From: a bacterium | GTDB taxonomy: Bacteria > Patescibacteriota > Minisyncoccia > Phycocordibacterales > CAIZLB01 | Length of the DNA stretch: 64,000 bases | Direction of reading: 5' to 3' | Assembly: GCA_031411135.1 (NCBI GenBank) | Contig: JANOAN010000003.1 | Location: 10,614 to 74,613, forward strand | Shown here: piece by piece, positions 6,806 to 58,131 of the stretch | Layout of the letters: each line of letters begins with the position of its first letter | Numbering within the stretch: the first letter of the stretch is position 1 | Notes under the pieces: generated by a model | What the model saw: the letters and a program-made list of their open reading frames with translations, nothing else | Databases searched by the model: none | Told to the model about the DNA's origin: nothing | Program-made: the position numbers and the translations under genes

Positions 6806-7402
6806 CTATTTTCCTTTCTTTTGTTTGAGATTTTGATAGAGATTGCTCACCCTATCTTTGAGTTGATCCAAGCTACAGTCTGTGTGAACCACAAACTGAG
6901 CTCTCTGTTCTTTTTCTGCTGATGGAAGTTGCTGATCAAGTCTGGCTTGTATCTCTACATCGTCCATCTGTCTGTTTTCTCGCAATCTTCGAAACTGCTC
7001 GTCAGGATTACAGGTTGCAACTATGATCTCTGCAAACTGTTCCTCGCTCATTGTTTCGAAAATGATAGCTGACTCGACAATGCAAACCTTGCCATCACCG
7101 GCAAAATCAACCTTCTCATTCACACTTGCCCACACAAGGGGGTGGATCAGAGCTTCAAGCAATCTTTTCTTTTCAGGGTCCTCAAAGATGATTTTTGCAA
7201 TTGCTCGAAAGTTCACTTTTTCACTTGAGAAAACGTTTATACCAAGGATGGTATTGATTTGATGTCTGTGTGCATTACCAGAGATGATTTCTTTAGCAAT
7301 CTGGTCACAATCTAGAATCAATACATCTGGATACTTTGAGAGCAGTGTTGCCACAGCACTCTTACCGCAGCCTATATTGCCCGTAAGTCCGAATGGTTTC
7401 AT
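6806..7402 (-). CDS. coaE: dephospho-CoA kinase
   Basis: P-loop GLTGNIGCGKS and CoaE-like length. Lies directly downstream of coaD. Confidence 0.85.
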   Translation of the reverse strand: MKPFGLTGNIGCGKSAVATLLSKYPDVLILDCDQIAKEIISGNAHRHQINTILGINVFSSEKVNFRAIAKIIFEDPEKKRLLEALIHPLVWASVNEKVDFAGDGKVCIVESAIIFETMSEEQFAEIIVATCNPDEQFRRLRENRQMDDVEIQARLDQQLPSAEKEQRAQFVVHTDCSLDQLKDRVSNLYQNLKQKKGK

Positions 7403-23678: not shown

Positions 23679-25199
23679 ATGTATCCAAAATCAAACAGCG
23701 CTGGTCCTCGGACTGGCAGTCATTCGCCTAAGCGAAGTTATTCATCATCAAAACCCCGCACAGGTGGCTATTCAGCCCCTGCGGGTTCAGGTTCTTCTAT
23801 TGGACGTTCATCCTCTGGTGGAAGACCTTTTAATGCACGAGCAGCCTACGGCACTGGTTCGGGCTATTCAGCACGACCTGCATCATCTGCACCAAGTCGT
23901 TCATATAGCTCAAGACCTGCATCTGGTGCCCCTTCTCGCTCATACAGCAGTGCTCCTCGCCCTTCATACGGCGCGCCACGTCCTTACAACACTGGCCCTG
24001 GATCACGACCATCATTTGGTGGTTCTCGTGGCGGTTCATCATACGGAGGCGGACGAGGTGGCTACCAAACACGACGCCCAGCTAAAAACTTTGGAACACG
24101 AATCGATCCTTCTCGTTTTATCAACAAAGCAATCGTTACCGAAGTGGTTGAAGTTTACAGCCCTAAACACACCTTTGCAGATTTTCAAATCAATGAAGAA
24201 TTGAAAGCTTCTATTATTGCGAAGGGTTACAAAACCCCTACCCCCATTCAGGATGGCGCAATTCCTAAAATCCTCGAAGGCGTGGATGTTATTGGACTTG
24301 CCAATACTGGTACTGGAAAAACAGCGGCGTTTTTAATTCCACTTATTCATAAAATATTATTGAACCGGGACGAACAAGTTATGGTTATTGCACCAACTCG
24401 TGAACTTGCGATTCAGATCGAACAGGAATTAGTTCAGTTCACAAAGGGATTGAAAATTTATTCTGTATGTTGTGTTGGAGGTGCGAACATTGTTCCACAA
24501 ATCCGAGCACTTCGAATGCATAACAACTTCGTGATTGGTACACCAGGACGATTGAAAGATTTAATCTCGACAGGACGAATAGTTCTCTCACGATTTAATA
24601 CAATCGTTCTTGATGAAGCTGACCGAATGTTGGATATGGGATTCGTAAACGATATGCGATTCATTATGGCCGGAATGCCAAAGACAAGACAGACTCTGTT
24701 CTTCTCTGCGACAGTTTCACCTGAAATTGAAAGATTGATTCAGGAGTTTTTGAAAAACCCTGTACGAATTTCAGTTAAGAGCCGAGATACTTCTAAAAAC
24801 ATTGATCAGGACGTTATCAGAGTTCCTCGTGGCGCTGATAAAGTTCAGATCTTGAGCGATCTATTAAAGAAGCCGGAATTTAGTAAAGTAATTATTTTCG
24901 GACGAACTAAACACGGAGTTGCAAAGCTTTCTGACATGCTTGTTAAAAATGGTTTCAAGTCTGAAGCCATTCACGGTAACCTCAATCACTCTGGACGACA
25001 GAGAGCGCTTACAGGATTCAAAGCTGGAAATACTCAGGTTCTAGTAGCAACTGATGTTGCCGCTCGAGGATTGGATATTTCTAATGTGAGTCACGTGATA
25101 AACTTTGATCTACCTGCCACTTATGACGACTATGTTCACCGAATTGGACGAACAGGACGAGGAGACAAGAAAGGAACTGCCCTTACATTCGTAGAGTAA
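23679..25199 (+). CDS. DEAD-box ATP-dependent RNA helicase with an N-terminal low-complexity S/R/G/Y/P-rich extension
   Basis: Q-motif (FADF..TPIQ), motif I ANTGTGKTAAF, DEAD, SAT and HRIGRTGR. The first ~140 aa are repetitive (RPASSAPSRSYSS / RPASGAPSRSYSS, GGSRGGSSYGGGRGGY). Confidence 0.9.
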   Translation: MYPKSNSAGPRTGSHSPKRSYSSSKPRTGGYSAPAGSGSSIGRSSSGGRPFNARAAYGTGSGYSARPASSAPSRSYSSRPASGAPSRSYSSAPRPSYGAPRPYNTGPGSRPSFGGSRGGSSYGGGRGGYQTRRPAKNFGTRIDPSRFINKAIVTEVVEVYSPKHTFADFQINEELKASIIAKGYKTPTPIQDGAIPKILEGVDVIGLANTGTGKTAAFLIPLIHKILLNRDEQVMVIAPTRELAIQIEQELVQFTKGLKIYSVCCVGGANIVPQIRALRMHNNFVIGTPGRLKDLISTGRIVLSRFNTIVLDEADRMLDMGFVNDMRFIMAGMPKTRQTLFFSATVSPEIERLIQEFLKNPVRISVKSRDTSKNIDQDVIRVPRGADKVQILSDLLKKPEFSKVIIFGRTKHGVAKLSDMLVKNGFKSEAIHGNLNHSGRQRALTGFKAGNTQVLVATDVAARGLDISNVSHVINFDLPATYDDYVHRIGRTGRGDKKGTALTFVE

Positions 25200-25269: not shown

Positions 25270-25974
25270 ATGAAAGCCCCCGCCAAACTTGTACTAATTC
25301 GTCACGCTGAATCAGAAAGAAATGCAGCACTCAATGGTGGTTTTTTTCTAAATGACCCAGATATTTTACAAAAAGTTGGAAAAGTACCTGATCATAGAAT
25401 ACCCATAACTGAGCACGGTAAATCTCAAGCTAAAAAAACTTCTTCTAAATTACTAGAAATTCATGGGATTCCAGACGTAGTTTTTCATTCTGGATATACA
25501 AGAACTAAACAAACAGCTGAAGGTGTTTTAAGCGATTATCCAGAAAATGCAAATCTTTCAATAAAAGAAGACCTTCTTATTCGCGAACGAGAAGGTGGTT
25601 ATCCATATACATTATTAGAATCTGAAAAAGATCTACACTTCCCTTATTTACAAGATTATTGGAACGTTGTCGGTGGAATATTTTCTCGCCCTGTTGGAGG
25701 AGAAAGCCTAATGGATGTTGTTGAGAATAGACTAAAGCCTTTCTTAGAAAATTTAAATAAAAACTATTCTGGAAAAACAATATTTCTAGTGACGCACGGA
25801 AGAGTGATTCAGTGTATGCGCTTTATTCTAGACGAAATGTCTTTGGAAGAAATGGAAAAGTTTATAGCTGATAATAAATCGTCACCTCGAAATTGTAGCG
25901 TAGCGGTTTATAAATACGATTCAAAAGAAGAAAAATTAAAATTAGACTCTTGGGATCAAGTTTACTGGGAATAA
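25270..25974 (+). CDS. histidine phosphatase family protein (phosphoglycerate mutase-like)
   Basis: RHAES catalytic motif (LVLIRHAESERN) and a later THGRV motif. Confidence 0.8.
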   Translation: MKAPAKLVLIRHAESERNAALNGGFFLNDPDILQKVGKVPDHRIPITEHGKSQAKKTSSKLLEIHGIPDVVFHSGYTRTKQTAEGVLSDYPENANLSIKEDLLIREREGGYPYTLLESEKDLHFPYLQDYWNVVGGIFSRPVGGESLMDVVENRLKPFLENLNKNYSGKTIFLVTHGRVIQCMRFILDEMSLEEMEKFIADNKSSPRNCSVAVYKYDSKEEKLKLDSWDQVYWE

Positions 25975-26582
25975 GTAAGAGATAAACCGCCGGTCCGAAA
26001 ATCGGGCCGGCGGTTTGACGCTTCAAGATGAGCTTTCAAATACCGCTTCAGTGCGGGACCAAACTCACTTCCGCACCTCTTCAGGTATCCAGAAATGACT
26101 TCGGAGCCAATTTTCTTGTTATTTCTTTGCGCAGCCCTCACCCAGGACTTCATCTCTGATCCAATCCGACGGATTACTACTTGTCCGTCATTGTTCAGAA
26201 AAACGCTGACGAATTCATCCGGATCCCATCCGCGGGCTTCTTTCCGGATAACACAGGCGATGAGCATCTCACGCTCGACACCACTTCCATCCTCTGGATA
26301 AATCAATCCCAAGGGGAGGAACAACCCTCCGAATTTTTCTGATTGATTCAAAATTCCTTCAATCAGATTCAGGCCGTTAAGCTGTGCCGTGTAGAGATTT
26401 TCCATCACTGCCCTTTTTTCTCCAATTCGCTTCTTTTTGGCCGTTTGGACTTGGATAGCCCAGATGGCCATTCCAATGAGTAGTGCGAGTGATGTCCAAA
26501 AGAGGACCAACATACGGTTGTACGCTACATTGCCACTTTGACGAGCAGGGGCGACTCCAGTAGTGAGTGCGGGTGTGTTCAT
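25962..26582 (-). CDS. hypothetical membrane-anchored protein (GC-rich orphan)
   Basis: A 206 aa ORF with a single N-terminal TM helix (MLVLFWTSLALLIGMAIWAI). No family recognised. Confidence 0.5.
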   Translation of the reverse strand: MNTPALTTGVAPARQSGNVAYNRMLVLFWTSLALLIGMAIWAIQVQTAKKKRIGEKRAVMENLYTAQLNGLNLIEGILNQSEKFGGLFLPLGLIYPEDGSGVEREMLIACVIRKEARGWDPDEFVSVFLNNDGQVVIRRIGSEMKSWVRAAQRNNKKIGSEVISGYLKRCGSEFGPALKRYLKAHLEASNRRPDFRTGGLSLTYSQ

Positions 26583-26695
26583 AGAGTACTGAACTCATTA
26601 GTATTAATAAGTGCAAAACGCTGTGAAAAACCAACTAGGAACTTTATCTGTATTAAGCCTATTCCTCCACATTAATAATGTCAATGTGTCAACTG

Positions 26696-26779
26696 TGCGC
26701 GGGAGAAGACTCGAACTTCCACGCCCGTAAGGGCGCTACCACCTCAAGGTAGTGCGTCTACCAATTTCGCCACCCGCGC
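26696..26779 (-). tRNA. tRNA-Leu (anticodon GAG)
   Basis: Hand fold on the minus strand. Acceptor GCGCGGG/CCCGCGC, anticodon stem-loop CUACC-UUGAGGU-GGUAG, a long variable arm, and T-arm GGAAG-UUCGAGU-CUUCU (4 bp plus one G.U). Confidence 0.85.
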
Positions 26780-28532: not shown

Positions 28533-28569
28533 TTAAAGGAAAAGCGCCGTACCCGGAGGTAGGGCGCTG
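28533..28569 (-). terminator. intrinsic terminator closing the hammerhead operon
   Basis: Minus strand: AGCGCC-CUACCUCCGGGUAC-GGCGCU followed by UUUCCUUU. It starts 18 nt after the stop of 28587..29039. Confidence 0.65.
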
Positions 28570-28586
28570 ATGACCTTTTCAAACCC

Positions 28587-29039
28587 TTAATCTGCAGGTT
28601 CCAGAGCATCGTAGTTAACCCACTGTTCCTTACAGTATCCTCGTGTATCATCTTCCCCAAATGTTTCTTCTGGTTGTTCGAGTGGTTCTATATGCACCAA
28701 CCAATCGTGAGTATGGTGTGGTGCCTTGAAACCCAATCGCTCTCCAACGTTGCGATGATCTTCGCGTTTTTGTAATATTTCGAGAGTGAGTGTTTCTTCC
28801 CCATAATGTTCAGCGGGTGTGCGAACAGCAAGCACTCGACTACGAATTTGAGTCCCGCCGATTCGTGAACCATAAGTAGATAGGACATCTAGGTTGGCGA
28901 TCACGATGTCTCCGGGCTTCACATTACATGCGGGTGTCGGTTTTTTGCATTTATTTTGGACCATGCGATTGTTGATGTAGATACTTCCGCAGAATTCGCA
29001 TTTAAGAATCTCGAGGTTGATGGTGGTGGGTTTAATCAT
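28587..29039 (-). CDS. hypothetical protein with an N-terminal CxxC..C..C zinc-ribbon-like motif (hammerhead operon gene 3)
   Basis: A 150 aa GC-rich ORF with cysteines at CEFCGS...CKKPTPAC. The ATG lies 30 nt after the end of hammerhead 1. Confidence 0.55.
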   Translation of the reverse strand: MIKPTTINLEILKCEFCGSIYINNRMVQNKCKKPTPACNVKPGDIVIANLDVLSTYGSRIGGTQIRSRVLAVRTPAEHYGEETLTLEILQKREDHRNVGERLGFKAPHHTHDWLVHIEPLEQPEETFGEDDTRGYCKEQWVNYDALEPAD

Positions 29040-29068
29040 GTTGGTTGGGATGGATTATTTATTTGTAA

Positions 29069-29148
29069 CGTGCTTCTGTTTCGTCTTGCTCTACCACTCA
29101 GTAGAGAGACTCATCAGGCAGGCTTCACATCCTGCGACAGGTGAGAGT
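29069..29148 (-). ncRNA. type III hammerhead ribozyme, copy 1
   Basis: Minus-strand read: CACCUGUC^GCAGG-AUGUGAAG-CCUGC CUGAUGAG UCU-CUCUAC-UGAGUG-GUAGAG-CA-AGA CGAAAC AG. All core positions are present (C3 U4 G5 A6 N7 G8 A9, G12 A13 A14, A15.1:U16.1, C17, G10.1:C11.1). Predicted cleavage is after C at 29136. Confidence 0.85.
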
Positions 29149-29188
29149 TTTGAAAAGTTCTCTCAACTTTTTCTATTGCACTAAGGGG

Positions 29189-29725
29189 CTATGGGAGCTT
29201 CCTTAGTTCTGCAAGAAATGTGCTGATTTTTTGCAGTCGAGCTGTGACGAGAGTGGAGCGCCGGGTCGATTCCTCCAGCATTCGAAGCTCGTCCTTTTCC
29301 TCCCATTCAAGTTGTGAGAGTGCGGTAGAGAATAGCCCCTTGTTCTTGTGAGTGAGAGCCGACCAGTTATCCCAGTCTCCTCGGCTGTCTTGCTCAGCGA
29401 AAAGAAGTTTTCCGTCTTGCACCCGGAGCATATATCCTCCAGCTTGGCATGAGCAGAAGGAGATACGATCTCCATCTTCAAGTTCTTTGCGCAAGGTCTG
29501 GAGCTTGTAGCTCAGGCAACCTCCCTCGACTGCTTCGATTCCCGCTGAGAAGTAGCCGAGGTTCAGCCTCTCTGCATCTTCTCGAGTGATTGAGCGGTGA
29601 GATCCGAATTGGATCCCGCCAAACTCGCTTCCGTCGGTAGTGTCGGCAAGGATGCTTTGGTTGGTCTTGCCTACAAAGTAGTGCTTGGCTCCGGTGAACT
29701 TTTCAGTGAATTCGATAAATTTCAT
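29189..29725 (-). CDS. hypothetical protein (hammerhead operon gene 2)
   Basis: A 178 aa GC-rich ORF. The ATG lies 34 nt after the hammerhead 2 core. No family recognised. Confidence 0.55.
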   Translation of the reverse strand: MKFIEFTEKFTGAKHYFVGKTNQSILADTTDGSEFGGIQFGSHRSITREDAERLNLGYFSAGIEAVEGGCLSYKLQTLRKELEDGDRISFCSCQAGGYMLRVQDGKLLFAEQDSRGDWDNWSALTHKNKGLFSTALSQLEWEEKDELRMLEESTRRSTLVTARLQKISTFLAELRKLP

Positions 29726-29759
29726 AGTTGGTGTTTTGTTGGGGTTTGAGTTGTAAGGT

Positions 29760-29816
29760 TCTTCTGTTTCGCTCTGTTGAGCTCGTCAGGCAAGATTCAT
29801 CTTGCGACAGAGAGGA
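29760..29816 (-). ncRNA. type III hammerhead ribozyme, copy 2
   Basis: Minus-strand read: CUCUCUGUC^GCAAGA-UGAA-UCUUGC CUGACGAG CUC-AACA-GAG CGAAAC AGAAG. The core is intact. Stems I and II differ in sequence from copies 1 and 3 but stay paired. Predicted cleavage is after C at 29806. Confidence 0.85.
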
Positions 29817-29842
29817 TTTTAAGGTTCCTCGAACCTGCGTTC

Positions 29843-30073
29843 TCACCCCTCCACAAAGTGGAGTAGGTGAACCTCGTGCTCCTTGTTTTTCCTCTCGAGA
29901 TGCTTGACCAGTTCAAGCTGCTCGTGAGGAATCCTTGGAGTGAACCTGTGTGGTTCAGCTGAGGTGCCAGGTGCTGCGGGCTCTGACTTTGAACACTGTT
30001 CAAAGTTTCGAGTGCGCAGTTCCTGATTCCACTCGTGGCGAATCCGTTGGTGGCGGGCTTGTTTGTGGTTCAT
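29843..30073 (-). CDS. hypothetical small basic protein (hammerhead operon gene 1)
   Basis: A 76 aa ORF taken from MNHKQARHQ at 30073. The longer track ORF, which starts at 30118, would begin inside the ribozyme. The ATG lies 17 nt after hammerhead 3. Confidence 0.4.
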   Translation of the reverse strand: MNHKQARHQRIRHEWNQELRTRNFEQCSKSEPAAPGTSAEPHRFTPRIPHEQLELVKHLERKNKEHEVHLLHFVEG

Positions 30074-30090
30074 AGTGGTGGTTTGTAAGG

Positions 30091-30163
30091 TTCGCTGTTT
30101 CGTCCTGTCTGCACACATGTGCAGTAGACTCGTCAGGCAAGGTCACACCTTGCGACAGGCGGT
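30091..30163 (-). ncRNA. type III hammerhead ribozyme, copy 3
   Basis: Minus-strand read: CCGCCUGUC^GCAAGGU-GUG-ACCUUGC CUGACGAG UCU-A-CUGCAC-AUGU-GUGCAG-AC-AGGA CGAAAC AGCG. The core is intact. Predicted cleavage is after C at 30154. Confidence 0.85.
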
Positions 30164-30494
30164 TTTGAGGCGGTTTCAGAGCTACCTCGCCGTACCATGT
30201 GGGTTCTTCCCCATGGATTCAGCAGCTCCTACTCCCGCCCTTGACGCTGTGCCGCGCACAACGCTTGTCTGCTTTTTGCCAGACAAGTGGCTTTTTACCG
30301 ATTCGGCCTCCTCAGTGGTTTGTTTGCGTGATCTGGTACTTTGGAGGTCCAGTCAGGTTTGAGCCACTTAGACTCTTCGACTCGCACCCTCTGTGCCTAG
30401 TCGCCGTTCCTCGGTAGGGCTTCGCCAGCGAACCCTTGACCTTTTGTAAGGTGCCTTTTCTGCAGAAGACTATACTTGACACAACTAAATAATG
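30164..30494 (-). other. ORF-free GC-rich structured leader RNA region upstream of hammerhead 3
   Basis: No credible ORF on the minus strand (only a 10-codon ATG ORF). Several perfect local hairpins: CUUGUCUG-GCAAAAAG-CAGACAAG, UGUGC-GCG-GCACA, CCAUGGGG-AAGAA-CCC-A-CAUGG and GGG-UUCG-CUGG-CGAA-G-CCC. The 5' limit is only inferred from a weak promoter. Confidence 0.3.
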
Positions 30495-30500
30495 CTTGTA

Positions 30501-30530
30501 TTTATAGGTAGTTTTGTAATACATATTCAA
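30501..30530 (-). promoter_or_regulatory. candidate promoter of the hammerhead operon
   Basis: Minus strand: TTGAAT, an 18 nt spacer, then TATAAA. Weak evidence. A divergent plus-strand TTGACA-17-TATTTA at 30476..30504 could serve 30603..31331. Confidence 0.3.
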
Positions 30531-35688: not shown

Positions 35689-35775
35689 GGAGGAGTGGCA
35701 GAGTGGTCGATCGCAACAGTCTTGAAAACTGTAGTCCTCGCAAGGGGACCGTGAGTTCGAATCTCACCTCCTCCG
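35689..35775 (+). tRNA. tRNA-Ser (anticodon TGA)
   Basis: Acceptor GGAGGAG/CTCCTCC, anticodon stem-loop ACAGT-CTTGAAA-ACTGT, a long variable arm, and T-arm GTGAG-TTCGAAT-CTCAC. Confidence 0.9.
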
Positions 35776-35840
35776 CACGCAAAAAACAGCTCAGAATATG
35801 GGCTGTTTTTTGTTTATCCAGGTGAGATTCGAACTTTTGG
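35768..35840 (+). repeat. att-like repeat copy 1 (tRNA-Ser 3' end + hairpin + inverted T-arm fragment)
   Basis: CTCCTCCGCACGCAAAAAAC, a hairpin, then TGTTTATCCAGGTGAGATTCGAACTTTTGG. Its parts recur at 37231..37320, 37871..37920 and 38630..38665. Confidence 0.7.
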
Positions 35841-35944
35841 TGTTGACTTATTGCATTTTAGTGATATAAATGTGAAGAATTTTCAAGTACTTTAAAATCA
35901 GTGCTTGGGCTTGGAAGAAAGACTGTAATTGACTTGCTGGCAAT

Positions 35945-37138
35945 ATGCCAAGCGGATTATTGACTTTCACTCCAAACCCAACTCACTACAAAATGAAAAC
36001 AAATCATGCGGAGCCGATCGATCGGCTTATCCGTTCCTACGAAGCAACGATGCAGTTCATCACATTTATGATGTGGCTCTGGAGAAGAGGAGATACTGAC
36101 GGGAGGTTCACAGATCCTTTTTGGCAGAGAATCTTCAATGGGCCTGTGAAGAACTGGAAGGATCTTCGTAAAGCCCTCCTTCGAATTCACAGCGACGGCT
36201 TTGATAACGAAAAGTTTGCAGGTCCTTCAATCACGGAACATGCTCTTAGTCAGAAAGAATTTGAATTCGGACAGTCTCGGATGATTGCTTCTCGTGTCGC
36301 CGAATGGACAAGGTCATCACGTCGTGTTTACTTTGTCCCAACCGACCTCCAACTCTTGCTTTCGACGACGAGTCTCAAAGATGTAGATTGGTCAATGATC
36401 AATTGGCCGTTTGATTCATTTCTGATTTCCTTCGAAATTCCAGTCAAACATCGAGGCAAGCAGATCGACTCGGTGTTGGTATCAAAGGAGCGGGTGGGAG
36501 AACATAAGATTATGGTGATTGAAACAATTGCCACTGATCTCCCGACCATCGAGTCGGTATTCGTCGGAAACCAAATCCAACGAATTGAAACGGCTCTGAG
36601 GAAGGAAGATTTCGAATACGCATCCGAAAAACTTGGAGGTGCGTATACAAATCGGCTCGCCATTGGCGGTGGAGACATCTGGCTTGCAAGCGAAAAGACG
36701 TTCAAACCTGGCGGACTAGCAGAAAAATTCGAGAACTTAGGGGAAGATCCTGAGTCAAAAATTATCTTCCGATTAATGTTCGGGCTACTTCTATACCTAC
36801 AGTCTCGCCCTCACAAGGAGCTTGCACCAAAAGGATGGGAGCCTTCAGCATTCGAACGGTGCGAAGGTCCAGCAAAAGTCATACGCATCGAGTCAGAAGT
36901 GTGCATCGTAAAAAGCATCTACAAGCTGACTGACACTGAACGGTCTGTGTTAGGACCTGCACTCCGCGGTGGATACGTTGAGGTGTCCCCTCACCACCGT
37001 GAGGGACACTGGCGTCGCCCACCGGGTAAAGGTGATGATCCAAATCACCCAAAGACAGTCTGGGTCAGACCTACAATAGTCAGAGGAGATAAGCTTGTCG
37101 ATGGAACACTACCAGTCGGGAGCTCTGAAGTAGTGTAA
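35945..37138 (+). CDS. hypothetical protein (GC-rich island cargo)
   Basis: A 397 aa ORF (alternative start MKTNH at 35993) with the C-terminal motif VSPHHREGHWRRPPGKG. No family recognised. The antisense ORFs are judged to be artefacts. Confidence 0.55.
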   Translation: MPSGLLTFTPNPTHYKMKTNHAEPIDRLIRSYEATMQFITFMMWLWRRGDTDGRFTDPFWQRIFNGPVKNWKDLRKALLRIHSDGFDNEKFAGPSITEHALSQKEFEFGQSRMIASRVAEWTRSSRRVYFVPTDLQLLLSTTSLKDVDWSMINWPFDSFLISFEIPVKHRGKQIDSVLVSKERVGEHKIMVIETIATDLPTIESVFVGNQIQRIETALRKEDFEYASEKLGGAYTNRLAIGGGDIWLASEKTFKPGGLAEKFENLGEDPESKIIFRLMFGLLLYLQSRPHKELAPKGWEPSAFERCEGPAKVIRIESEVCIVKSIYKLTDTERSVLGPALRGGYVEVSPHHREGHWRRPPGKGDDPNHPKTVWVRPTIVRGDKLVDGTLPVGSSEVV

Positions 37139-37230
37139 ATGATGGTAATCCCATTCGGTGCCAGTAACGTGTAACTGGCATACCCACCTTTCTCGAGCGT
37201 TGTCTCGGGGGGTGGTTTTTATTTTACATA

Positions 37231-37320
37231 CCAAGTTCGAACAGCCTCCACGGTCCTCCGCACGCAAAAACCGCCCGAAAGGGCGGTTTGTTTTATCACA
37301 AGTGAGATTCGAACTTTTGC
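37231..37320 (+). repeat. att-like repeat copy 2
   Basis: AAGTTCGAACAGCCTCCACGGTCCTCCGCACGCAAAAACC, the hairpin CGCCC-GAAA-GGGCG, then TTTTATCACAAGTGAGATTCGAACTTTTGC. Confidence 0.7.
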
Positions 37321-37422
37321 GTAAATTATTGAACCACTACGGTAGTCTTTACTTTTAATAATTAAGTGGTAGTTTTAGATTGAACCCAGCACGCAAAACA
37401 ATAAAAACGGAGGTAACCAAAA

Positions 37423-37785
37423 ATGCAAAATTATGCACTCAGGTCTTTATGGAGACCATTAACGCCAGCACAACGAGGAATGATCCTCATGGCATATGAT
37501 CAATCGACACATGCTGACGTGTGGGAAGCGCTCAAGAGTGAAGAAGACCACCAAAGGGTCACTCTACTTTCACGAACAGTAGTCGAGGCTCACGTAGATC
37601 TGGCGCAAAATGATGACCCTGAACTCATGGTAGGAACCTCACTTGTGTCATCCAACTTTGCGGTGAGTTTCGTTCGCTGGTTTCGCGAATTGAAAGCCTG
37701 GAAAGAGTTAAGGTGGGATGACCCTCATCTGTTCCACACGCTTCTATCTCACGCCTGTGTCGCAAAAAAACTCGAAACGGTGTAA
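37423..37785 (+). CDS. hypothetical protein (GC-rich island cargo)
   Basis: A 120 aa ORF with an SD-like GGAGGU 9 nt upstream and a downstream terminator (CACCGCU-CUGACAA-AGCGGUG plus a U-tract). Confidence 0.5.
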   Translation: MQNYALRSLWRPLTPAQRGMILMAYDQSTHADVWEALKSEEDHQRVTLLSRTVVEAHVDLAQNDDPELMVGTSLVSSNFAVSFVRWFRELKAWKELRWDDPHLFHTLLSHACVAKKLETV

Positions 37786-37870
37786 CCGCACGATCAAAAA
37801 TATGGCTACGGCCTTCCCCGCACTGGACTGTGCCACCGCTCTGACAAAGCGGTGTTTTCTTTTTTATAAA

Positions 37871-37920
37871 AAGTTCTAACAACCCCCACGGTACTCCGCA
37901 CATTCGAACATTTTATCTAC
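37871..37920 (+). repeat. att-like repeat copy 3 (pseudo tRNA 3' end only)
   Basis: AAGTTCTAACAACCCCCACGGTACTCCGCAC closely matches the left part of copy 2. Confidence 0.6.
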
Positions 37921-37927
37921 AAAAAAT

Positions 37928-38608
37928 CTATTTTAAGCGCTTCTTATTTGGATTCAAAAAATTTTCCCTAGTCGCCACCCTTTTCCCTGTTTTTCTTTCA
38001 ATTTCCTTGCGGGCATTGCCTGAAACTCTACCGCCGTCCTTTGCATCTTTCTGAAGTAATGGAAATCCTTTAGAGTCTCTACTCCGAGAAAGCTCTGTTG
38101 TTGTTGCTTCTCCTAACATTGTGAGTATAAGTTCAAGCTCATTCATATGGTCTCGTGCATTATCCTGCTTTGAGATTTTTTTATAATCTTTTATTTCTTG
38201 AGCGGTCATTTCAAAAGTTCCTTTATATATTTCGTTTGTGAGAATTGCGAACTCAATACCTTCCTTCGCTTCTCTGTTTTTCCATTCATCAGTAAGAGTG
38301 TTGCGAACATTAATACCTCGAATTCTTTTAGCAATCCAATCTTCGTTGTGTCCTTTTTGCTCGTAAGTTTTCTTTGCTCGTAAAACAGCTCGTTCAGGGT
38401 CTTGTATTTCTTCTATTCGTTCCTGACCTACTTTTGCCAACCACAACTTAAATGGTTCTGCTTTCGATGAAGGAATGGCTTGTATGATACGAAAGATACC
38501 TGCCAAATTGGCACAATTTACCTTCTGAACCCATCCTTTCGTCTCTATTCCAAGGGGGGTGGCAATTTGCCCCCACCCTTTTGATAACTCCTCATCCCTT
38601 CTACGCAT
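37928..38608 (-). CDS. Bro-N / DinD-like (phage antirepressor-type) protein, apparently N-terminally truncated
   Basis: FRIIQAIPSSKAEPFKLWLAKVGQERIEEIQDPERAV..YEQKGHNEDWIAKRIRGINVRNTLTDEW is the conserved central region of DNA-damage-inducible protein D / BRO family proteins. The usual N-terminal segment is missing. Confidence 0.65.
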   Translation of the reverse strand: MRRRDEELSKGWGQIATPLGIETKGWVQKVNCANLAGIFRIIQAIPSSKAEPFKLWLAKVGQERIEEIQDPERAVLRAKKTYEQKGHNEDWIAKRIRGINVRNTLTDEWKNREAKEGIEFAILTNEIYKGTFEMTAQEIKDYKKISKQDNARDHMNELELILTMLGEATTTELSRSRDSKGFPLLQKDAKDGGRVSGNARKEIERKTGKRVATRENFLNPNKKRLK

Positions 38609-57846: not shown

Positions 57847-57951
57847 ATCTAAGCTAAGGTACAGACAGATACCTCAGTTTTTGGTATCATGGTAATCACA
57901 ACAAAGACCTAACCCCTAGAAAACCCTTAGTTTCCTAGGATATGGTCGTAA

Positions 57952-58131
57952 TAAAAACCGCTACAGTATAGAAGACTCCTCGTCAGAGTCACTGTAGCGG
58001 TCGCGTCTAGGAAACTGGATGTGGGTTGAGCCGAAAGGTTCGATCACAATGGCGAGGGGTCTTCTGTCTCAAGGCTCAAAACTCCTCGCCACTTATTATT
58101 AGTTAATAAGCTTAAACCGCTACAGTGGCTT
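57952..58131. promoter_or_regulatory. structured intergenic element with three mutually exclusive 11-nt pairing segments
   Basis: ACCGCTACAGT at 57957..57967 and again at 58116..58126, with its exact complement ACTGTAGCGGT at 57991..58001. Also an internal GAGCC-GAAA-GGUUC hairpin (58028..58041), GGCGAGG/CCUCGCC (58051..57 / 58084..90) and TTGAGCC/GGCTCAA (58026..32 / 58073..79). The strand of action is unresolved. Confidence 0.4.

What the first reader, a model, noticed from the sequence alone, without database searches (positions are those of the whole stretch)
28587..30073. Three orphan proteins as hammerhead cargo, with no recognisable domains
The three ORFs match no family I can recognise.

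- 76 aa: basic, MNHKQARHQRIRHEW...
- 178 aa: MKFIEFTEKFTGAKHYF...
- 150 aa: has a CEFCGS...CKKPTPAC zinc-ribbon-like motif.

They share composition (high GC, A/C-rich SD-less leaders ending CCAAC(U)AUG) and are co-transcribed with the ribozymes. The unit sits between core genes (pyrH-like on one side, a TrmB-like regulator on the other) in an otherwise AT-rich genome. That suggests acquisition as a module. If there is an undescribed functional system in this window, this ribozyme plus three-gene module is my best candidate. The function is unknown.
Basis: inference. Interest (0 to 1): 0.55.

Follow-up and report, generated by a model that had tools for sequence, protein, structure and literature searches.

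The report
Hammerhead-cut operon of orphan genes
A 2-kb foreign-looking gene cluster, probably in a Patescibacteria-type bacterium, is predicted to be cut by three self-cleaving hammerhead RNAs into separate messages for two conserved but uncharacterised proteins and one doubtful third ORF; this is a known, still unexplained layout rather than a new three-protein system.

Summary
The ORFs and ribozymes are real and lie on the minus strand. One GC-rich unit (about 28,535-30,530) reads: putative promoter, 310-nt structured leader, HH1, 76-codon ORF, HH2, P2 (178 aa), HH3, P3 (150 aa), terminator.

P2 and P3 are genuine genes under purifying selection. P2's N-terminal ~80 residues define a family with about 90 cluster representatives. 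P3 belongs to a small family with conserved Cys and His residues. Neither family matches Pfam, PHROGs or PDB; family A also gave nothing consistent in PADLOC.

P1 has no homolog among 1.84 billion representatives. Its RNA folds far more stably than the coding segments, so it may be a structured RNA.

The three do not travel together. P2 relatives are ribozyme cargo in three other loci, always with different neighbours. P3 relatives have no ribozyme next to them, and the two families co-occur only here.

The same hammerhead subfamily forms arrays of 2-4 copies in Patescibacteria MAGs and IMG/VR viral contigs, with varied and mostly unannotated cargo. Clustered hammerheads flanking variable genes were described in 2011.

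Verdict: this is a new member of a known kind, a ribozyme-processed array of independently assorted accessory cassettes. Protein functions remain unknown.

The parts
30501..30530 (-). Candidate promoter, TTGAAT-N18-TATAAA, in the AT-rich spacer shared with the divergent TrmB gene.
   Evidence: Read from the sequence. The consensus scan does not report it because the -10 hexamer lacks the final T. Inferred, unverified.
30442..30454 (-). 5' box GCACCUUACAAAA at the start of the GC-rich leader.
   Evidence: It is identical over 13/13 nt to L001 133-145, which follows a hammerhead there. The box family GWWCYTTRMAA has 4 matches in the window, 3 of them in this island.
30163..30470 (-). GC-rich structured non-coding leader RNA. 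It would be released by HH1 cleavage with a 2',3'-cyclic phosphate end.
   Evidence: The longest ORF is 56 aa and nothing here is conserved. MFE is -113.9 kcal/mol, z=-3.7 or -3.0. No Rfam family matches. Leaders in the same position occur in L024 (z=-4.8) and L001 (z=-9.9 to -11.9).
30091..30162 (-). Hammerhead HH1 (type III, long bipartite stem II). Predicted cleavage after C30154.
   Evidence: Rfam RF00008 gives 25.6 bits, E=0.015. Custom model R1 gives 58.1 bits (this sequence was in the model's seed alignment). The core is CUGACGA...GAAA with cleavage triplet GUC.
29843..30073 (-). P1, a 76-codon ORF whose coding status is unresolved and which may be part of a structured RNA.
   Evidence: No hit among 1.84 billion representatives (profile positions 329-404). 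Not called as a gene in L003. The segment folds with z=-6.5/-5.7, against -2.3 to -3.3 for the P2 and P3 segments. In favour of coding: GC1/2/3 is 0.66/0.34/0.58, and the start context matches P2 and P3.
29812..29830 (-). Hairpin GAGGA-ACCUUAAAA-UCCUC abutting HH2. It would be the 3'-terminal hairpin of the upstream cleavage product.
   Evidence: the MFE pairs this stretch differently. Hairpins in the same position precede hammerheads in most other loci.
29760..29814 (-). Hammerhead HH2 (minimal type III). Predicted cleavage after C29806.
   Evidence: Rfam gives 41.2 bits, E=5.4e-07. R1 gives 70.4 bits (in the seed alignment).
29189..29725 (-). P2, 178 aa: family-A domain (about residues 1-80) plus a C-terminal extension ending in a long helix.
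   Evidence: Homologs: P0002 at 60% identity, P0004 (177 aa) and about 90 family-A cluster representatives. pN 0.257 against pS 0.824 versus L001. In the AF2 model only helix 135-175 is confident. No Pfam, PHROGs or PDB match, and no consistent PADLOC match.
29143..29164 (-). Hairpin GAGAG-AACUUUUCAAAA-CUCUC abutting HH3.
29072..29144 (-). Hammerhead HH3 (type III, extended stem II). Predicted cleavage after C29136.
   Evidence: Rfam gives 36.9 bits, E=9.3e-06. R1 gives 60.9 bits (in the seed alignment). A near-identical stem II occurs in L018 (a Paceibacterota MAG), and extended-stem-II hammerheads of similar length in L001 and L034.
28587..29039 (-). P3, 150 aa, family B. Invariant residues are C14, C17, C31, H111 and W113, with a possible beta-rich middle region.
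   Evidence: Six other cluster representatives, E from 8.9e-34 to 4.8e-04, aligned as A4. pN 0.323 against pS 0.757 versus L032. No significant Pfam or PDB match for the family; P3 itself has no PHROGs, PADLOC or NCBIfam match. The AF2 model is unusable, pLDDT 31.8.
28535..28568 (-). Intrinsic terminator: AGCGCC...GGCGCU hairpin followed by UUUUCCUUU.
   Evidence: z=-2.9.

Best explanation
This is a horizontally acquired, single-promoter transcription unit of about 2 kb, probably in a Patescibacteria (CPR)-type genome.

Three type-III hammerhead ribozymes are predicted to cut the primary transcript into four RNAs (inferred from sequence; cleavage was not tested):
- a structured leader of about 330 nt;
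- a very stable RNA of about 350 nt that carries the doubtful 76-codon ORF;
- a monocistronic mRNA of about 670 nt for P2;
- a monocistronic mRNA of about 600 nt for P3.

Each upstream product would end in a hairpin plus a 2',3'-cyclic phosphate. Each downstream product would start with a 5'-OH, the folded ribozyme body, a conserved CUUUACAA-type box and an unstructured A/C-rich leader running into the start codon. Inferred consequences are that the cistrons become physically separate, their 5' and 3' ends are standardised and protected, and translation and decay of each cassette are uncoupled from its neighbours.

The cassettes are independently assorted accessory genes drawn from a pool shared by Patescibacteria and their phages. 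They are not components of one machine. P2 and P3 are real proteins from two uncharacterised families, and their biochemical roles are not determined.
For: Anatomy:
- Everything lies on one strand. The only hairpin with a U-tract is at the 3' end.
- Three hammerheads have intact cores.
- The hammerhead fold is backed by covariation in 23 subfamily members: 99.7% of cells paired, 41 compensatory cells, 0/500 shuffles reaching that.

Generality:
- The subfamily pattern occurs in 10 IMG/VR viral contigs.
- It occurs in 11 GTDB genomes, mostly Saccharibacteria, Parcubacteria or Paceibacterota.
- Model R1 finds co-oriented arrays of 2-4 strong hammerhead matches in L005, L006, L007, L012, L015, L016, L019, L023, L024 and L034.
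- Cargo is heterogeneous, and 25 of 30 cargo proteins have no Pfam hit.

Cassette independence:
- Family A is hammerhead/twister cargo in the window, L001, L034 and L024, each time with different neighbours.
- Family B elsewhere stands alone, with its own promoter and terminator modules in L026.
- A and B co-occur only in the window.

Foreignness:
- GC and GC3 are well above the flanking genes.
- A P2 homolog (P0004) sits in a longer small-gene array, also divergent from a TrmB gene.

Real genes: purifying selection on P2 and P3.

Literature: clustered hammerheads flank variable genes and cleave roughly 2-kb polycistronic transcripts in vitro (PMC3088659). Processing of polycistronic mRNAs is the proposed role of bacterial ribozymes (PMC6765202).
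Against: - Cleavage was not shown for these copies, and all three score below Rfam's gathering threshold.
- The promoter is only a weak consensus match.
- There is no phage or integrase gene in or next to the island, so the source of the DNA is inferred from composition and from where the hammerhead subfamily occurs.
- The supposed benefits of cleavage (stability, insulation) are inference.
- The census rests on about 35 loci, many of them short contigs and several chosen because they contain the hammerhead pattern.
- Protein function is unresolved. Both AF2 models were run before the family alignments existed and are unusable.
Confidence: 0.6

Rival explanations
1. A dedicated three-protein functional system (for example defence or toxin-antitoxin), in which P1, P2 and P3 act together and the ribozymes set their stoichiometry.
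For: The ORFs are co-transcribed, share composition and similar start contexts, and have no known domains.
Against: - P1 has no homolog.
- P2- and P3-family genes never co-occur in the 10 other distinct loci examined.
- P2 relatives have unrelated neighbours in L001, L034 and L024.
- P3 relatives are stand-alone genes.
- P1-P3 have no PADLOC hit, and the 94 family-A members give no consistent one.
Confidence: 0.08
2. Part of the payload is RNA, not protein. The HH1-HH2 segment (the 'P1' ORF) and the leader would be ribozyme-released structured ncRNAs. Because they carry 5'-OH and 2',3'-cyclic phosphate ends, they could be ligated into circles by an RtcB-type ligase.
For: - The P1 segment has z=-6.5/-5.7, against +0.5 to -3.3 for 14 ribozyme-flanked segments that carry an ORF of at least 65 codons.
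- Three of the four ORF-less ribozyme-flanked segments are equally or more stable: L001 135-545 between a hammerhead and a twister (z about -10 to -12), L016 at -8.6 and L016 at -7.7. The fourth, in L015, is not (z=-2.1).
- P1 has no homolog and no gene call.
- In the MFE fold the two ends of the P1 segment pair with each other.
Against: - P1 has a coding-like GC1/2/3 pattern and the same CCA(A)CUAUGA start context as P2 and P3.
- There is no sequence similarity among the putative ncRNAs.
- No Rfam family matches.
- Circular products were sought and not found in the 2011 study of other arrays (PMC3088659).
- Presence of RtcB in this genome was not checked.
Confidence: 0.3
3. A prophage remnant or phage-derived 'moron': the island is a leftover of a Patescibacteria phage early-gene array, and P2 and P3 act in phage-host conflict.
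For: - The hammerhead subfamily is present in 10 IMG/VR viral contigs, with arrays in front of small ORFs.
- Composition is foreign.
- Published hammerhead clusters are mostly in prophages.
Against: - There is no integrase, att repeat or phage structural gene at the island.
- Families A and B were not found in IMG/VR and family A has no PHROGs match.
- Hammerheads of this subfamily also precede housekeeping-type genes in MAGs: upp in L032 and a periplasmic binding protein in L019.
Confidence: 0.2
4. The ORFs are chance reading frames in a non-coding ribozyme-rich spacer.
For: No known domains and poor AF2 confidence.
Against: P2 and P3 have homologs at E of 1e-53 and 1e-33. Synonymous sites are saturated while non-synonymous sites are constrained. 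This remains tenable only for P1.
Confidence: 0.03

Closest known systems
Clustered hammerhead ribozymes flanking genes in prophages (Perreault et al. 2011, PMC3088659; examples in Clostridium scindens, Azorhizobium caulinodans, Agrobacterium tumefaciens)
   Same: Several co-oriented hammerheads within about 2 kb flank single genes whose identities vary, many of them hypothetical. The proposed role is processing a long transcript into gene-length RNAs.
   Different: - The host is probably a Patescibacteria-type genome, and no prophage genes adjoin the island.
- This is a specific type-III subfamily with a 4-5 bp stem III, an abutting upstream hairpin, a conserved downstream CUUUACAA-type box and A/C-rich leaders.
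- Some cargo segments in related arrays are ORF-less structured RNAs.
- Cleavage here is untested.
Shared gene associations of bacterial hammerhead and twister ribozymes (reviewed in Weinberg, Weinberg & Hammann 2019, PMC6765202)
   Same: The P2 homolog locus L001 carries both a twister-P1 and two hammerheads. This is the same interchangeable use of ribozyme classes near the same genes.
   Different: I could not check whether family A or family B is among the associated gene families listed in that literature. Neither family has a Pfam model.
Synthetic ribozyme insulators such as RiboJ (from my own knowledge of synthetic biology, not checked here)
   Same: It would work the same way: a self-cleaving ribozyme upstream of the RBS removes upstream context and leaves a defined 5'-OH end with a hairpin.
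   Different: This is a natural element used repeatedly within one operon, and its effect on expression has not been measured.
Ribozyme-flanked circular RNAs (retrozymes, viroid-like RNAs)
   Same: A unit flanked by two self-cleaving ribozymes yields 5'-OH and 2',3'-cyclic phosphate ends that a ligase can join.
   Different: There is no evidence of circles or of RNA replication. The units are DNA-encoded cistrons in a bacterial chromosome.
Integron gene-cassette arrays (analogy only)
   Same: Arrays of small, mostly unannotated, independently assorted genes are separated by structured repeats. A P2 homolog (P0004) also sits in a longer small-gene array divergent from a TrmB gene.
   Different: No integrase and no attC sites are present. 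The repeats are RNA ribozymes, and mobility of single units is not shown.

Membership tests
Hammerhead ribozyme, type III (Rfam RF00008) | Catalytic core C3-U4-G5-A6-N7-G8-A9, G12-A13-A14, and a cleavage triplet ending in H17. | tested here: met
   All three copies carry CUGA(C/U)GA, GAAA and GUC.
Hammerhead ribozyme, type III (Rfam RF00008) | Three-way junction with stems I and II closed by loops and stem III open, supported by covariation. | tested here: met
   Across 23 subfamily members, 99.7% of cells are paired, 7 of 14 pairs show double changes, and 0/500 shuffles reach the observed score. Parts of stems I and III were fixed by the search pattern, so the independent evidence comes from stem II and the outer part of stem I.
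Hammerhead ribozyme, type III (Rfam RF00008) | Score at or above Rfam's gathering threshold of 48.5 bits. | tested here: not met
   Scores are 25.6, 41.2 and 36.9 bits. The shortfall is largely due to long stem II insertions and the short stem III.
Hammerhead ribozyme, type III (Rfam RF00008) | Site-specific self-cleavage. | not testable with these tools
   Needs in vitro transcription or end-specific RNA-seq.
Clustered-hammerhead gene arrays (Perreault 2011) | At least two co-oriented hammerheads within a few kb that flank individual genes. | tested here: met
   Three hammerheads within 1.1 kb, one before each ORF.
Clustered-hammerhead gene arrays (Perreault 2011) | Prophage or integrase context. 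| tested here: inconclusive
   No integrase or phage gene lies in or beside the island. The same hammerhead subfamily does occur in IMG/VR viral contigs.
Family A (this work, alignment A5; no public name) | About 80-residue domain with the motifs F-x-EF, (K)HYFVG, ILADT-x2-G-x-EFGG and G-x2-SYKL. | tested here: met
   P2 residues 1-80; the local profile hmmsearch gives E=2e-31. One search lists 98 hits at E<=0.001, of which about 90 are family A.
Family B (this work, alignment A4; no public name) | 140-150 aa protein with C-x-F-C-G, a third Cys about 14 residues later, and an H-D-W-(L/M)-V-x-V-(K/E)-P motif. | tested here: met
   P3 carries every invariant residue (C14, F16, C17, G18, C31, P36, H111, W113, P119).
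Zinc-ribbon domain (Pfam DUF7479 as nearest model) | Score above the Pfam gathering threshold, with two CxxC-type knuckles. | tested here: not met
   15.6 bits against a cut-off of 27. The second Cys pair of P3 (C31...C38) is not conserved in the family; only C31 is. A Cys3-His site using H111 is my inference.
Known anti-phage defence systems (PADLOC-DB 2.0) | Any component matching a PADLOC model. | tested here: not met
   No hit for P1-P3 at E<=1. The 94 family-A members give only scattered single hits.
Integron-like cassette array | Integrase gene and attC recombination sites. | tested here: not met
   No integrase-like ORF appears in the ORF lists for 21.5-33 kb and 35.7-38.5 kb, and the only direct repeats in the island are the hammerheads and their boxes. 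The rest of the window was not searched, and no attC model was run.
Ribozyme-derived circular RNA | Ribozymes on both flanks, giving ligatable ends. | tested here: met
   Met by geometry for the P1 and P2 units.
Ribozyme-derived circular RNA | Detected circular molecules. | not testable with these tools
   Needs RNA data.

The most novel reading that the evidence does not exclude
The hammerhead-delimited units of Patescibacteria and their phages could be a general cassette system with two cargo types: mRNAs and very stable ncRNAs of 250-500 nt. Each unit would start with the conserved CUUUACAA-type box.

On this reading the window's leader and 'P1' segment are such excised RNAs, possibly circularised through their 5'-OH and 2',3'-cyclic phosphate ends. 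Family A (P2) would be a protein that functionally accompanies ribozyme-processed RNAs, which would explain its repeated linkage to hammerhead and twister ribozymes. That would put a concrete protein family and RNA class behind the long-unexplained gene associations of bacterial self-cleaving ribozymes.
Probability: 0.12. Interest if true: 0.75.

Novelty: new member of a known kind. Interest (0 to 1): 0.38.

Why it matters
Why bacterial self-cleaving ribozymes cluster with each other and with particular genes is still an open question (PMC6765202). This locus adds three things:

- A compact, easily synthesised 2-kb test case with three ribozymes and predicted product sizes.
- A named candidate ribozyme-associated protein family. 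Family A is hammerhead or twister cargo in four independent loci and is absent from Pfam, PHROGs and PDB.
- Evidence that in Patescibacteria the same ribozyme subfamily delimits both mRNAs and ORF-less, highly structured RNAs.

For genome annotation, the three ORFs should not be read as a new multi-protein system, and the 76-codon ORF should not be taken as a gene without further evidence.

Tried and rejected
- **Domain libraries on P1-P3.** Pfam, PHROGs, PADLOC and NCBIfam gave nothing significant.
- **Family-wide searches.** Pfam, PHROGs and PADLOC on all 94 family-A members, Pfam on family B, and PDB profile searches for both families gave nothing consistent.
- **Structure prediction.** AlphaFold2 on P2 (2-sequence alignment, pLDDT 47.7) and P3 (single sequence, pLDDT 31.8) was run before the family alignments existed. 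No fold search was run because it would be meaningless.
- **Searches of IMG/VR.** Alignments A5 and A6 were too diverse for the search for related loci to build a search pattern. A4 and P2 gave no viral relatives.
- **Neighbour homology.** I tested whether P3 and P1 are homologous to the neighbours of the P2 homolog in L001; they are not.
- **P1 versus the first cargo of L024.** There is only a 29-nt, 79% DNA match and a BLASTP E of 0.083. I judge this compositional, from the A/C-rich leader running into the ORF.
- **Leader similarity.** The window leader is not alignably similar to the L001 leader, and blastn/nhmmer find nothing.
- **Post-hammerhead box as a promoter.** Rejected as a -35 element: it lies only 10-32 nt from the start codons, and in the window it occurs only in the island.
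- **The conserved L029 intergenic element.** It is not a known ribozyme (no Rfam hit) and has no further copies in IMG/VR.
- **Att-like direct repeats at the island borders.** None found.
Full report
**1. What is in the sequence**

The finding lies on the minus strand. Read 5'->3' on that strand, the region holds:

- An AT-rich spacer shared with the divergent TrmB gene, containing a weak promoter candidate (TTGAAT-N18-TATAAA, 30530-30501).
- A GC-rich stretch of about 310 nt with no credible ORF (30470-30163).
- Hammerhead HH1 (30162-30091).
- A 76-codon ORF, P1 (30073-29843).
- A hairpin (29830-29812) abutting HH2 (29814-29760).
- P2, 178 aa (29725-29189).
- A hairpin (29164-29143) abutting HH3 (29144-29072).
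- P3, 150 aa (29039-28587).
- A GC-rich hairpin followed by UUUUCCUUU (28568-28535), the only terminator-like element.

GC is 0.46-0.54 across the unit, against about 0.37 in the flanking AA_kinase (pyrH-like) and TrmB genes. GC3 is 0.41-0.58 against 0.31-0.39.

**2. The ribozymes**

Rfam's Hammerhead_3 model matches all three at 25.6, 41.2 and 36.9 bits. In the 2.25-kb search the E-values are 0.015, 5.4e-07 and 9.3e-06, all below the 48.5-bit gathering score. Each copy has the full catalytic core (CUGA(C/U)GA, GAAA), the GUC cleavage triplet, closed stems I and II and an open stem III of 4-5 bp.

A pattern derived from them found the same subfamily in 10 IMG/VR viral contigs. It also found 11 GTDB species-representative genomes, most of them labelled Saccharibacteria, Parcubacteria, Paceibacterota or Patescibacteria.

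On 23 distinct members the three-stem structure is 99.7% paired with 41 compensatory cells. No shuffle out of 500 reached that, and slid controls reached 37-47%. Parts of stems I and III were fixed by the search pattern, so the independent covariation is in stem II and the outer half of stem I.

Predicted cleavage sites are after C30154, C29806 and C29136. Cleavage itself was not tested.

**3. The three ORFs**

*No annotated family.* None of the three matches Pfam, PHROGs, PADLOC or NCBIfam. The only hit is DUF7479 for P3, at 15.6 bits against a cut-off of 27. The word-indexed search found one P2 homolog (P0002, 60% identity) and none for P3.

*Exhaustive search.* I ran the single exhaustive HMMER job on a concatenated profile of P2, P3 and P1, with P0002 aligned to the P2 part.

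- It returned 98 hits at E<=0.001.
- About 90 hit P2 residues 1-80. Most are stand-alone proteins of about 80 residues (family A, alignment A5).
- Three cluster representatives share P2's full length including the C-terminal extension: the window protein, P0002 and P0004.
- Six hit P3 end to end (family B, alignment A4). Invariant residues are C14, F16, C17, G18, C31, P36, H111, W113 and P119.
- None hit P1.

*Selection.* Against their homologs' DNA, synonymous sites are saturated (pS 0.76-0.82) while non-synonymous differences are low (pN 0.16-0.32). P2 and P3 are therefore real genes under purifying selection.

*No wider annotation.* Neither family has a significant Pfam or PDB match. Family A also has none in PHROGs and nothing consistent in PADLOC.

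Only the C-terminal helix 135-175 of P2 is confident.

**4. P1 is doubtful**

For coding:
- GC1/2/3 is 0.66/0.34/0.58, a coding-like pattern.
- Its start context (ACCACCACUAUGA) resembles those of P2 and P3.

Against coding:
- It has no homolog among 1.84 billion representatives.
- No gene was called there in the identical public contig L003.
- The HH1-HH2 RNA is unusually stable, z=-6.5 or -5.7.

For comparison, the P2 segment gives z of -2.75 to -3.3, and the P3 mRNA segment (HH3 to the terminator) gives -2.28. Eleven coding segments between ribozymes in other arrays give +0.5 to -1.9. Three of four ORF-less ribozyme-flanked segments give -7.7, -8.6 and about -10 to -12; the fourth, in L015, gives -2.1.

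I put the chance that P1 is a translated protein at roughly one half.

**5. Do the parts travel together?**

They do not.

*Family A as ribozyme cargo* occurs in four independent loci:
- the window;
- L001/L002 (hammerhead, 411-nt structured RNA, twister-P1, a 119-aa gene, the P2 homolog, hammerhead, a 189-aa gene);
- L034 (three hammerheads; cargo of 82 aa family A at 71% identity to P2, 138 aa and 188 aa);
- L024 (three hammerheads; the third cargo is a divergent family-A protein, E=2.4e-08).

The neighbours differ every time. More distant family-A genes in L027 and L029 have no Rfam ribozyme nearby.

*Family B* genes in L025, L026 and L032 are stand-alone. In L026 the gene sits in an island of small genes between rny and ymdB, each gene with its own terminator-promoter repeat. 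Families A and B co-occur only in the window.

One contig without available DNA carries the P2 homolog P0004 in a longer small-gene array that is also divergent from a TrmB gene. This may be a syntenic variable site.

**6. The wider pattern**

Model R1 finds co-oriented arrays of 2-4 strong matches to this hammerhead subfamily (L016 and L012 each add one weak match):
- in the MAG-derived loci L015, L016, L019, L023 and L024 and the short Logan metagenome contig L034;
- in viral contigs L005, L006, L007 and L012.

Cargo is heterogeneous. Of 30 cargo proteins, 25 have no Pfam hit. The exceptions include a periplasmic binding protein, DUF932 and a weak receiver-domain match, and the gene after the L032 hammerhead is a UPRTase. 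Besides family A, two other families recur: L018/L034, and L023/L024. Some units have no ORF at all.

Common flanking features are:
- a hairpin directly upstream of stem III;
- a conserved box 5-12 nt downstream (GUUCUUUACAA, GAACCUUACAA or CAUUUAAAAC);
- then an A-rich or A/C-rich leader.

In the window the box occurs only in this island. It also marks the start of the ribozyme-less leader (30442-30454), where it is identical over 13/13 nt to L001 133-145. Its function is unexplained.

**7. Comparison with what is known**

Perreault et al. 2011 (PMC3088659) reported that multiple hammerheads often flank individual genes or short gene blocks in prophages, and that the identities of those genes are not constant. 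They showed cleavage of roughly 2-kb polycistronic transcripts in vitro and proposed processing into gene-length mRNAs. They looked for circular or spliced products and found none.

The 2019 review (PMC6765202) states three things. Bacterial ribozymes cluster with each other and with certain genes. Twister and hammerhead ribozymes share these associations. The reason is undetermined.

A full-text search for hammerhead together with CPR or Patescibacteria terms surfaced nothing among its 12 top-ranked hits. The window is therefore a new example of a known architecture in a little-studied lineage.

**8. Mechanism**

Shown:
- anatomy and ribozyme integrity;
- protein conservation;
- independent assortment of the cassettes.

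Inferred:
- a single promoter;
- co-transcriptional cleavage into four RNAs;
- 3' hairpin plus cyclic phosphate ends on upstream products;
- 5'-OH plus ribozyme body plus box plus unstructured leader on downstream products;
- the resulting uncoupling of stability and translation between cassettes.

The leaders' A/C richness (0.80-0.95 against 0.54 +/- 0.15 for the window) would keep them from pairing with the ribozyme. The lack of a Shine-Dalgarno motif is the norm in this genome (4 of 47 ORFs). The functions of P2 and P3 remain unknown. My only structural guess is a Cys3-His metal site in P3.

**9. Verdict**

- The interpretation as a novel ribozyme plus three-gene system is not supported.
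- The best reading is a ribozyme-processed array of independently assorted accessory cassettes.
- Interest is moderate-low (0.38). Novelty: new member of a known kind.
- The most novel reading still open (probability about 0.12) is that these arrays release functional, possibly circular, structured RNAs, and that family A is functionally tied to ribozyme-processed RNAs.

Noticed in passing
L029 1249-1352 and 1605-1714: Two copies of a conserved intergenic element lie between small genes of a family-A array, exactly where hammerheads sit in other arrays. Each is a hairpin with compensatory changes, then CCUGUACUGGACU, an 8-9 bp stem with compensatory changes, GAGAGCC..CAGGAAAGUUCUUUGAGG and an SD. 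It has no Rfam match and no copy in IMG/VR. It is a candidate undescribed processing element.
   Followed up: partly
L001 135-545: A 411-nt ORF-less RNA bounded by a hammerhead (78-134) and a twister-P1 (546-602) is extremely stable (z=-9.9 to -11.9). It starts with the CCUUACAAAA box and a near-perfect hairpin of about 24 bp. No Rfam family matches.
   Followed up: partly
L016 2751-3255 and 1423-1748 (minus strand): Two further ORF-less, very stable segments lie between hammerheads in a Parcubacteria MAG (z=-8.6 and -7.7). Each begins with the GUUCUUU box followed by a 12-21 bp near-perfect hairpin.
   Followed up: partly
window 30442-30454, 30083-30093, 29751-29761 (minus strand); most hammerhead loci: A conserved box (GAACCUUACAA, GUUCUUUACAA or CAUUUAAAAC) lies a few nucleotides after the hammerhead and also at ribozyme-less 5' ends. 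The loops of the upstream hairpins carry a similar YUUNAAAA motif. Its function is unknown.
   Followed up: partly
L032 2108-2164 (+); L019 5042-5098 (-): The same hammerhead subfamily sits directly upstream of housekeeping-type genes: a UPRTase (upp) gene and a periplasmic binding protein. In these genomes it is therefore not restricted to orphan or phage genes.
   Followed up: no
window 57906-58045 (+): LOOT RNA (RF03000), 52.7 bits, above its gathering score of 46.4.
   Followed up: no
window 35689-38608: tRNA-Ser (35689-35776) is followed by a GC-rich block with a 397-aa unknown ORF (35945-37138), a 120-aa ORF and a 226-aa minus-strand ORF (37928-38608) that looks Bro-N/DinD-like by eye. 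This is possibly an integrated element at the tRNA.
   Followed up: no
window 23679-25199 (+): A DEAD-box helicase-like ORF has a low-complexity N-terminal tail of about 140 aa rich in S, G, R and P. This explains the GC peak at 23.6-24.2 kb.
   Followed up: no
window 25962-26582 (-): A GC-rich (0.48) 206-aa ORF of unknown function lies next to tRNA-Leu (26695-26779). It is another compositionally odd spot.
   Followed up: no
L027 about 7200-7400: Two direct copies, about 130 nt apart, of a roughly 55-nt motif contain ...GCCACACGAAACAGCGAACAUCGA, which resembles the 3' end of window HH1. They lie inside a family-A small-gene island. Model R1 does not recognise it as a hammerhead.
   Followed up: no
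L026 2785-5502: The island of small genes between rny and ymdB that holds a family-B gene is punctuated by repeated terminator-promoter modules (for example CCGGTTTTTTTTATTCTTGAATGTCGGGTATATT, three copies) instead of ribozymes.
   Followed up: partly
contig of P0004 (ENA ERZ1426856, no DNA available): A 177-aa full-length P2 homolog sits in an eight-gene array of small genes divergent from a 244-aa TrmB gene, mirroring the window's TrmB adjacency. This could be a syntenic variable site or a regulatory link.
   Followed up: no
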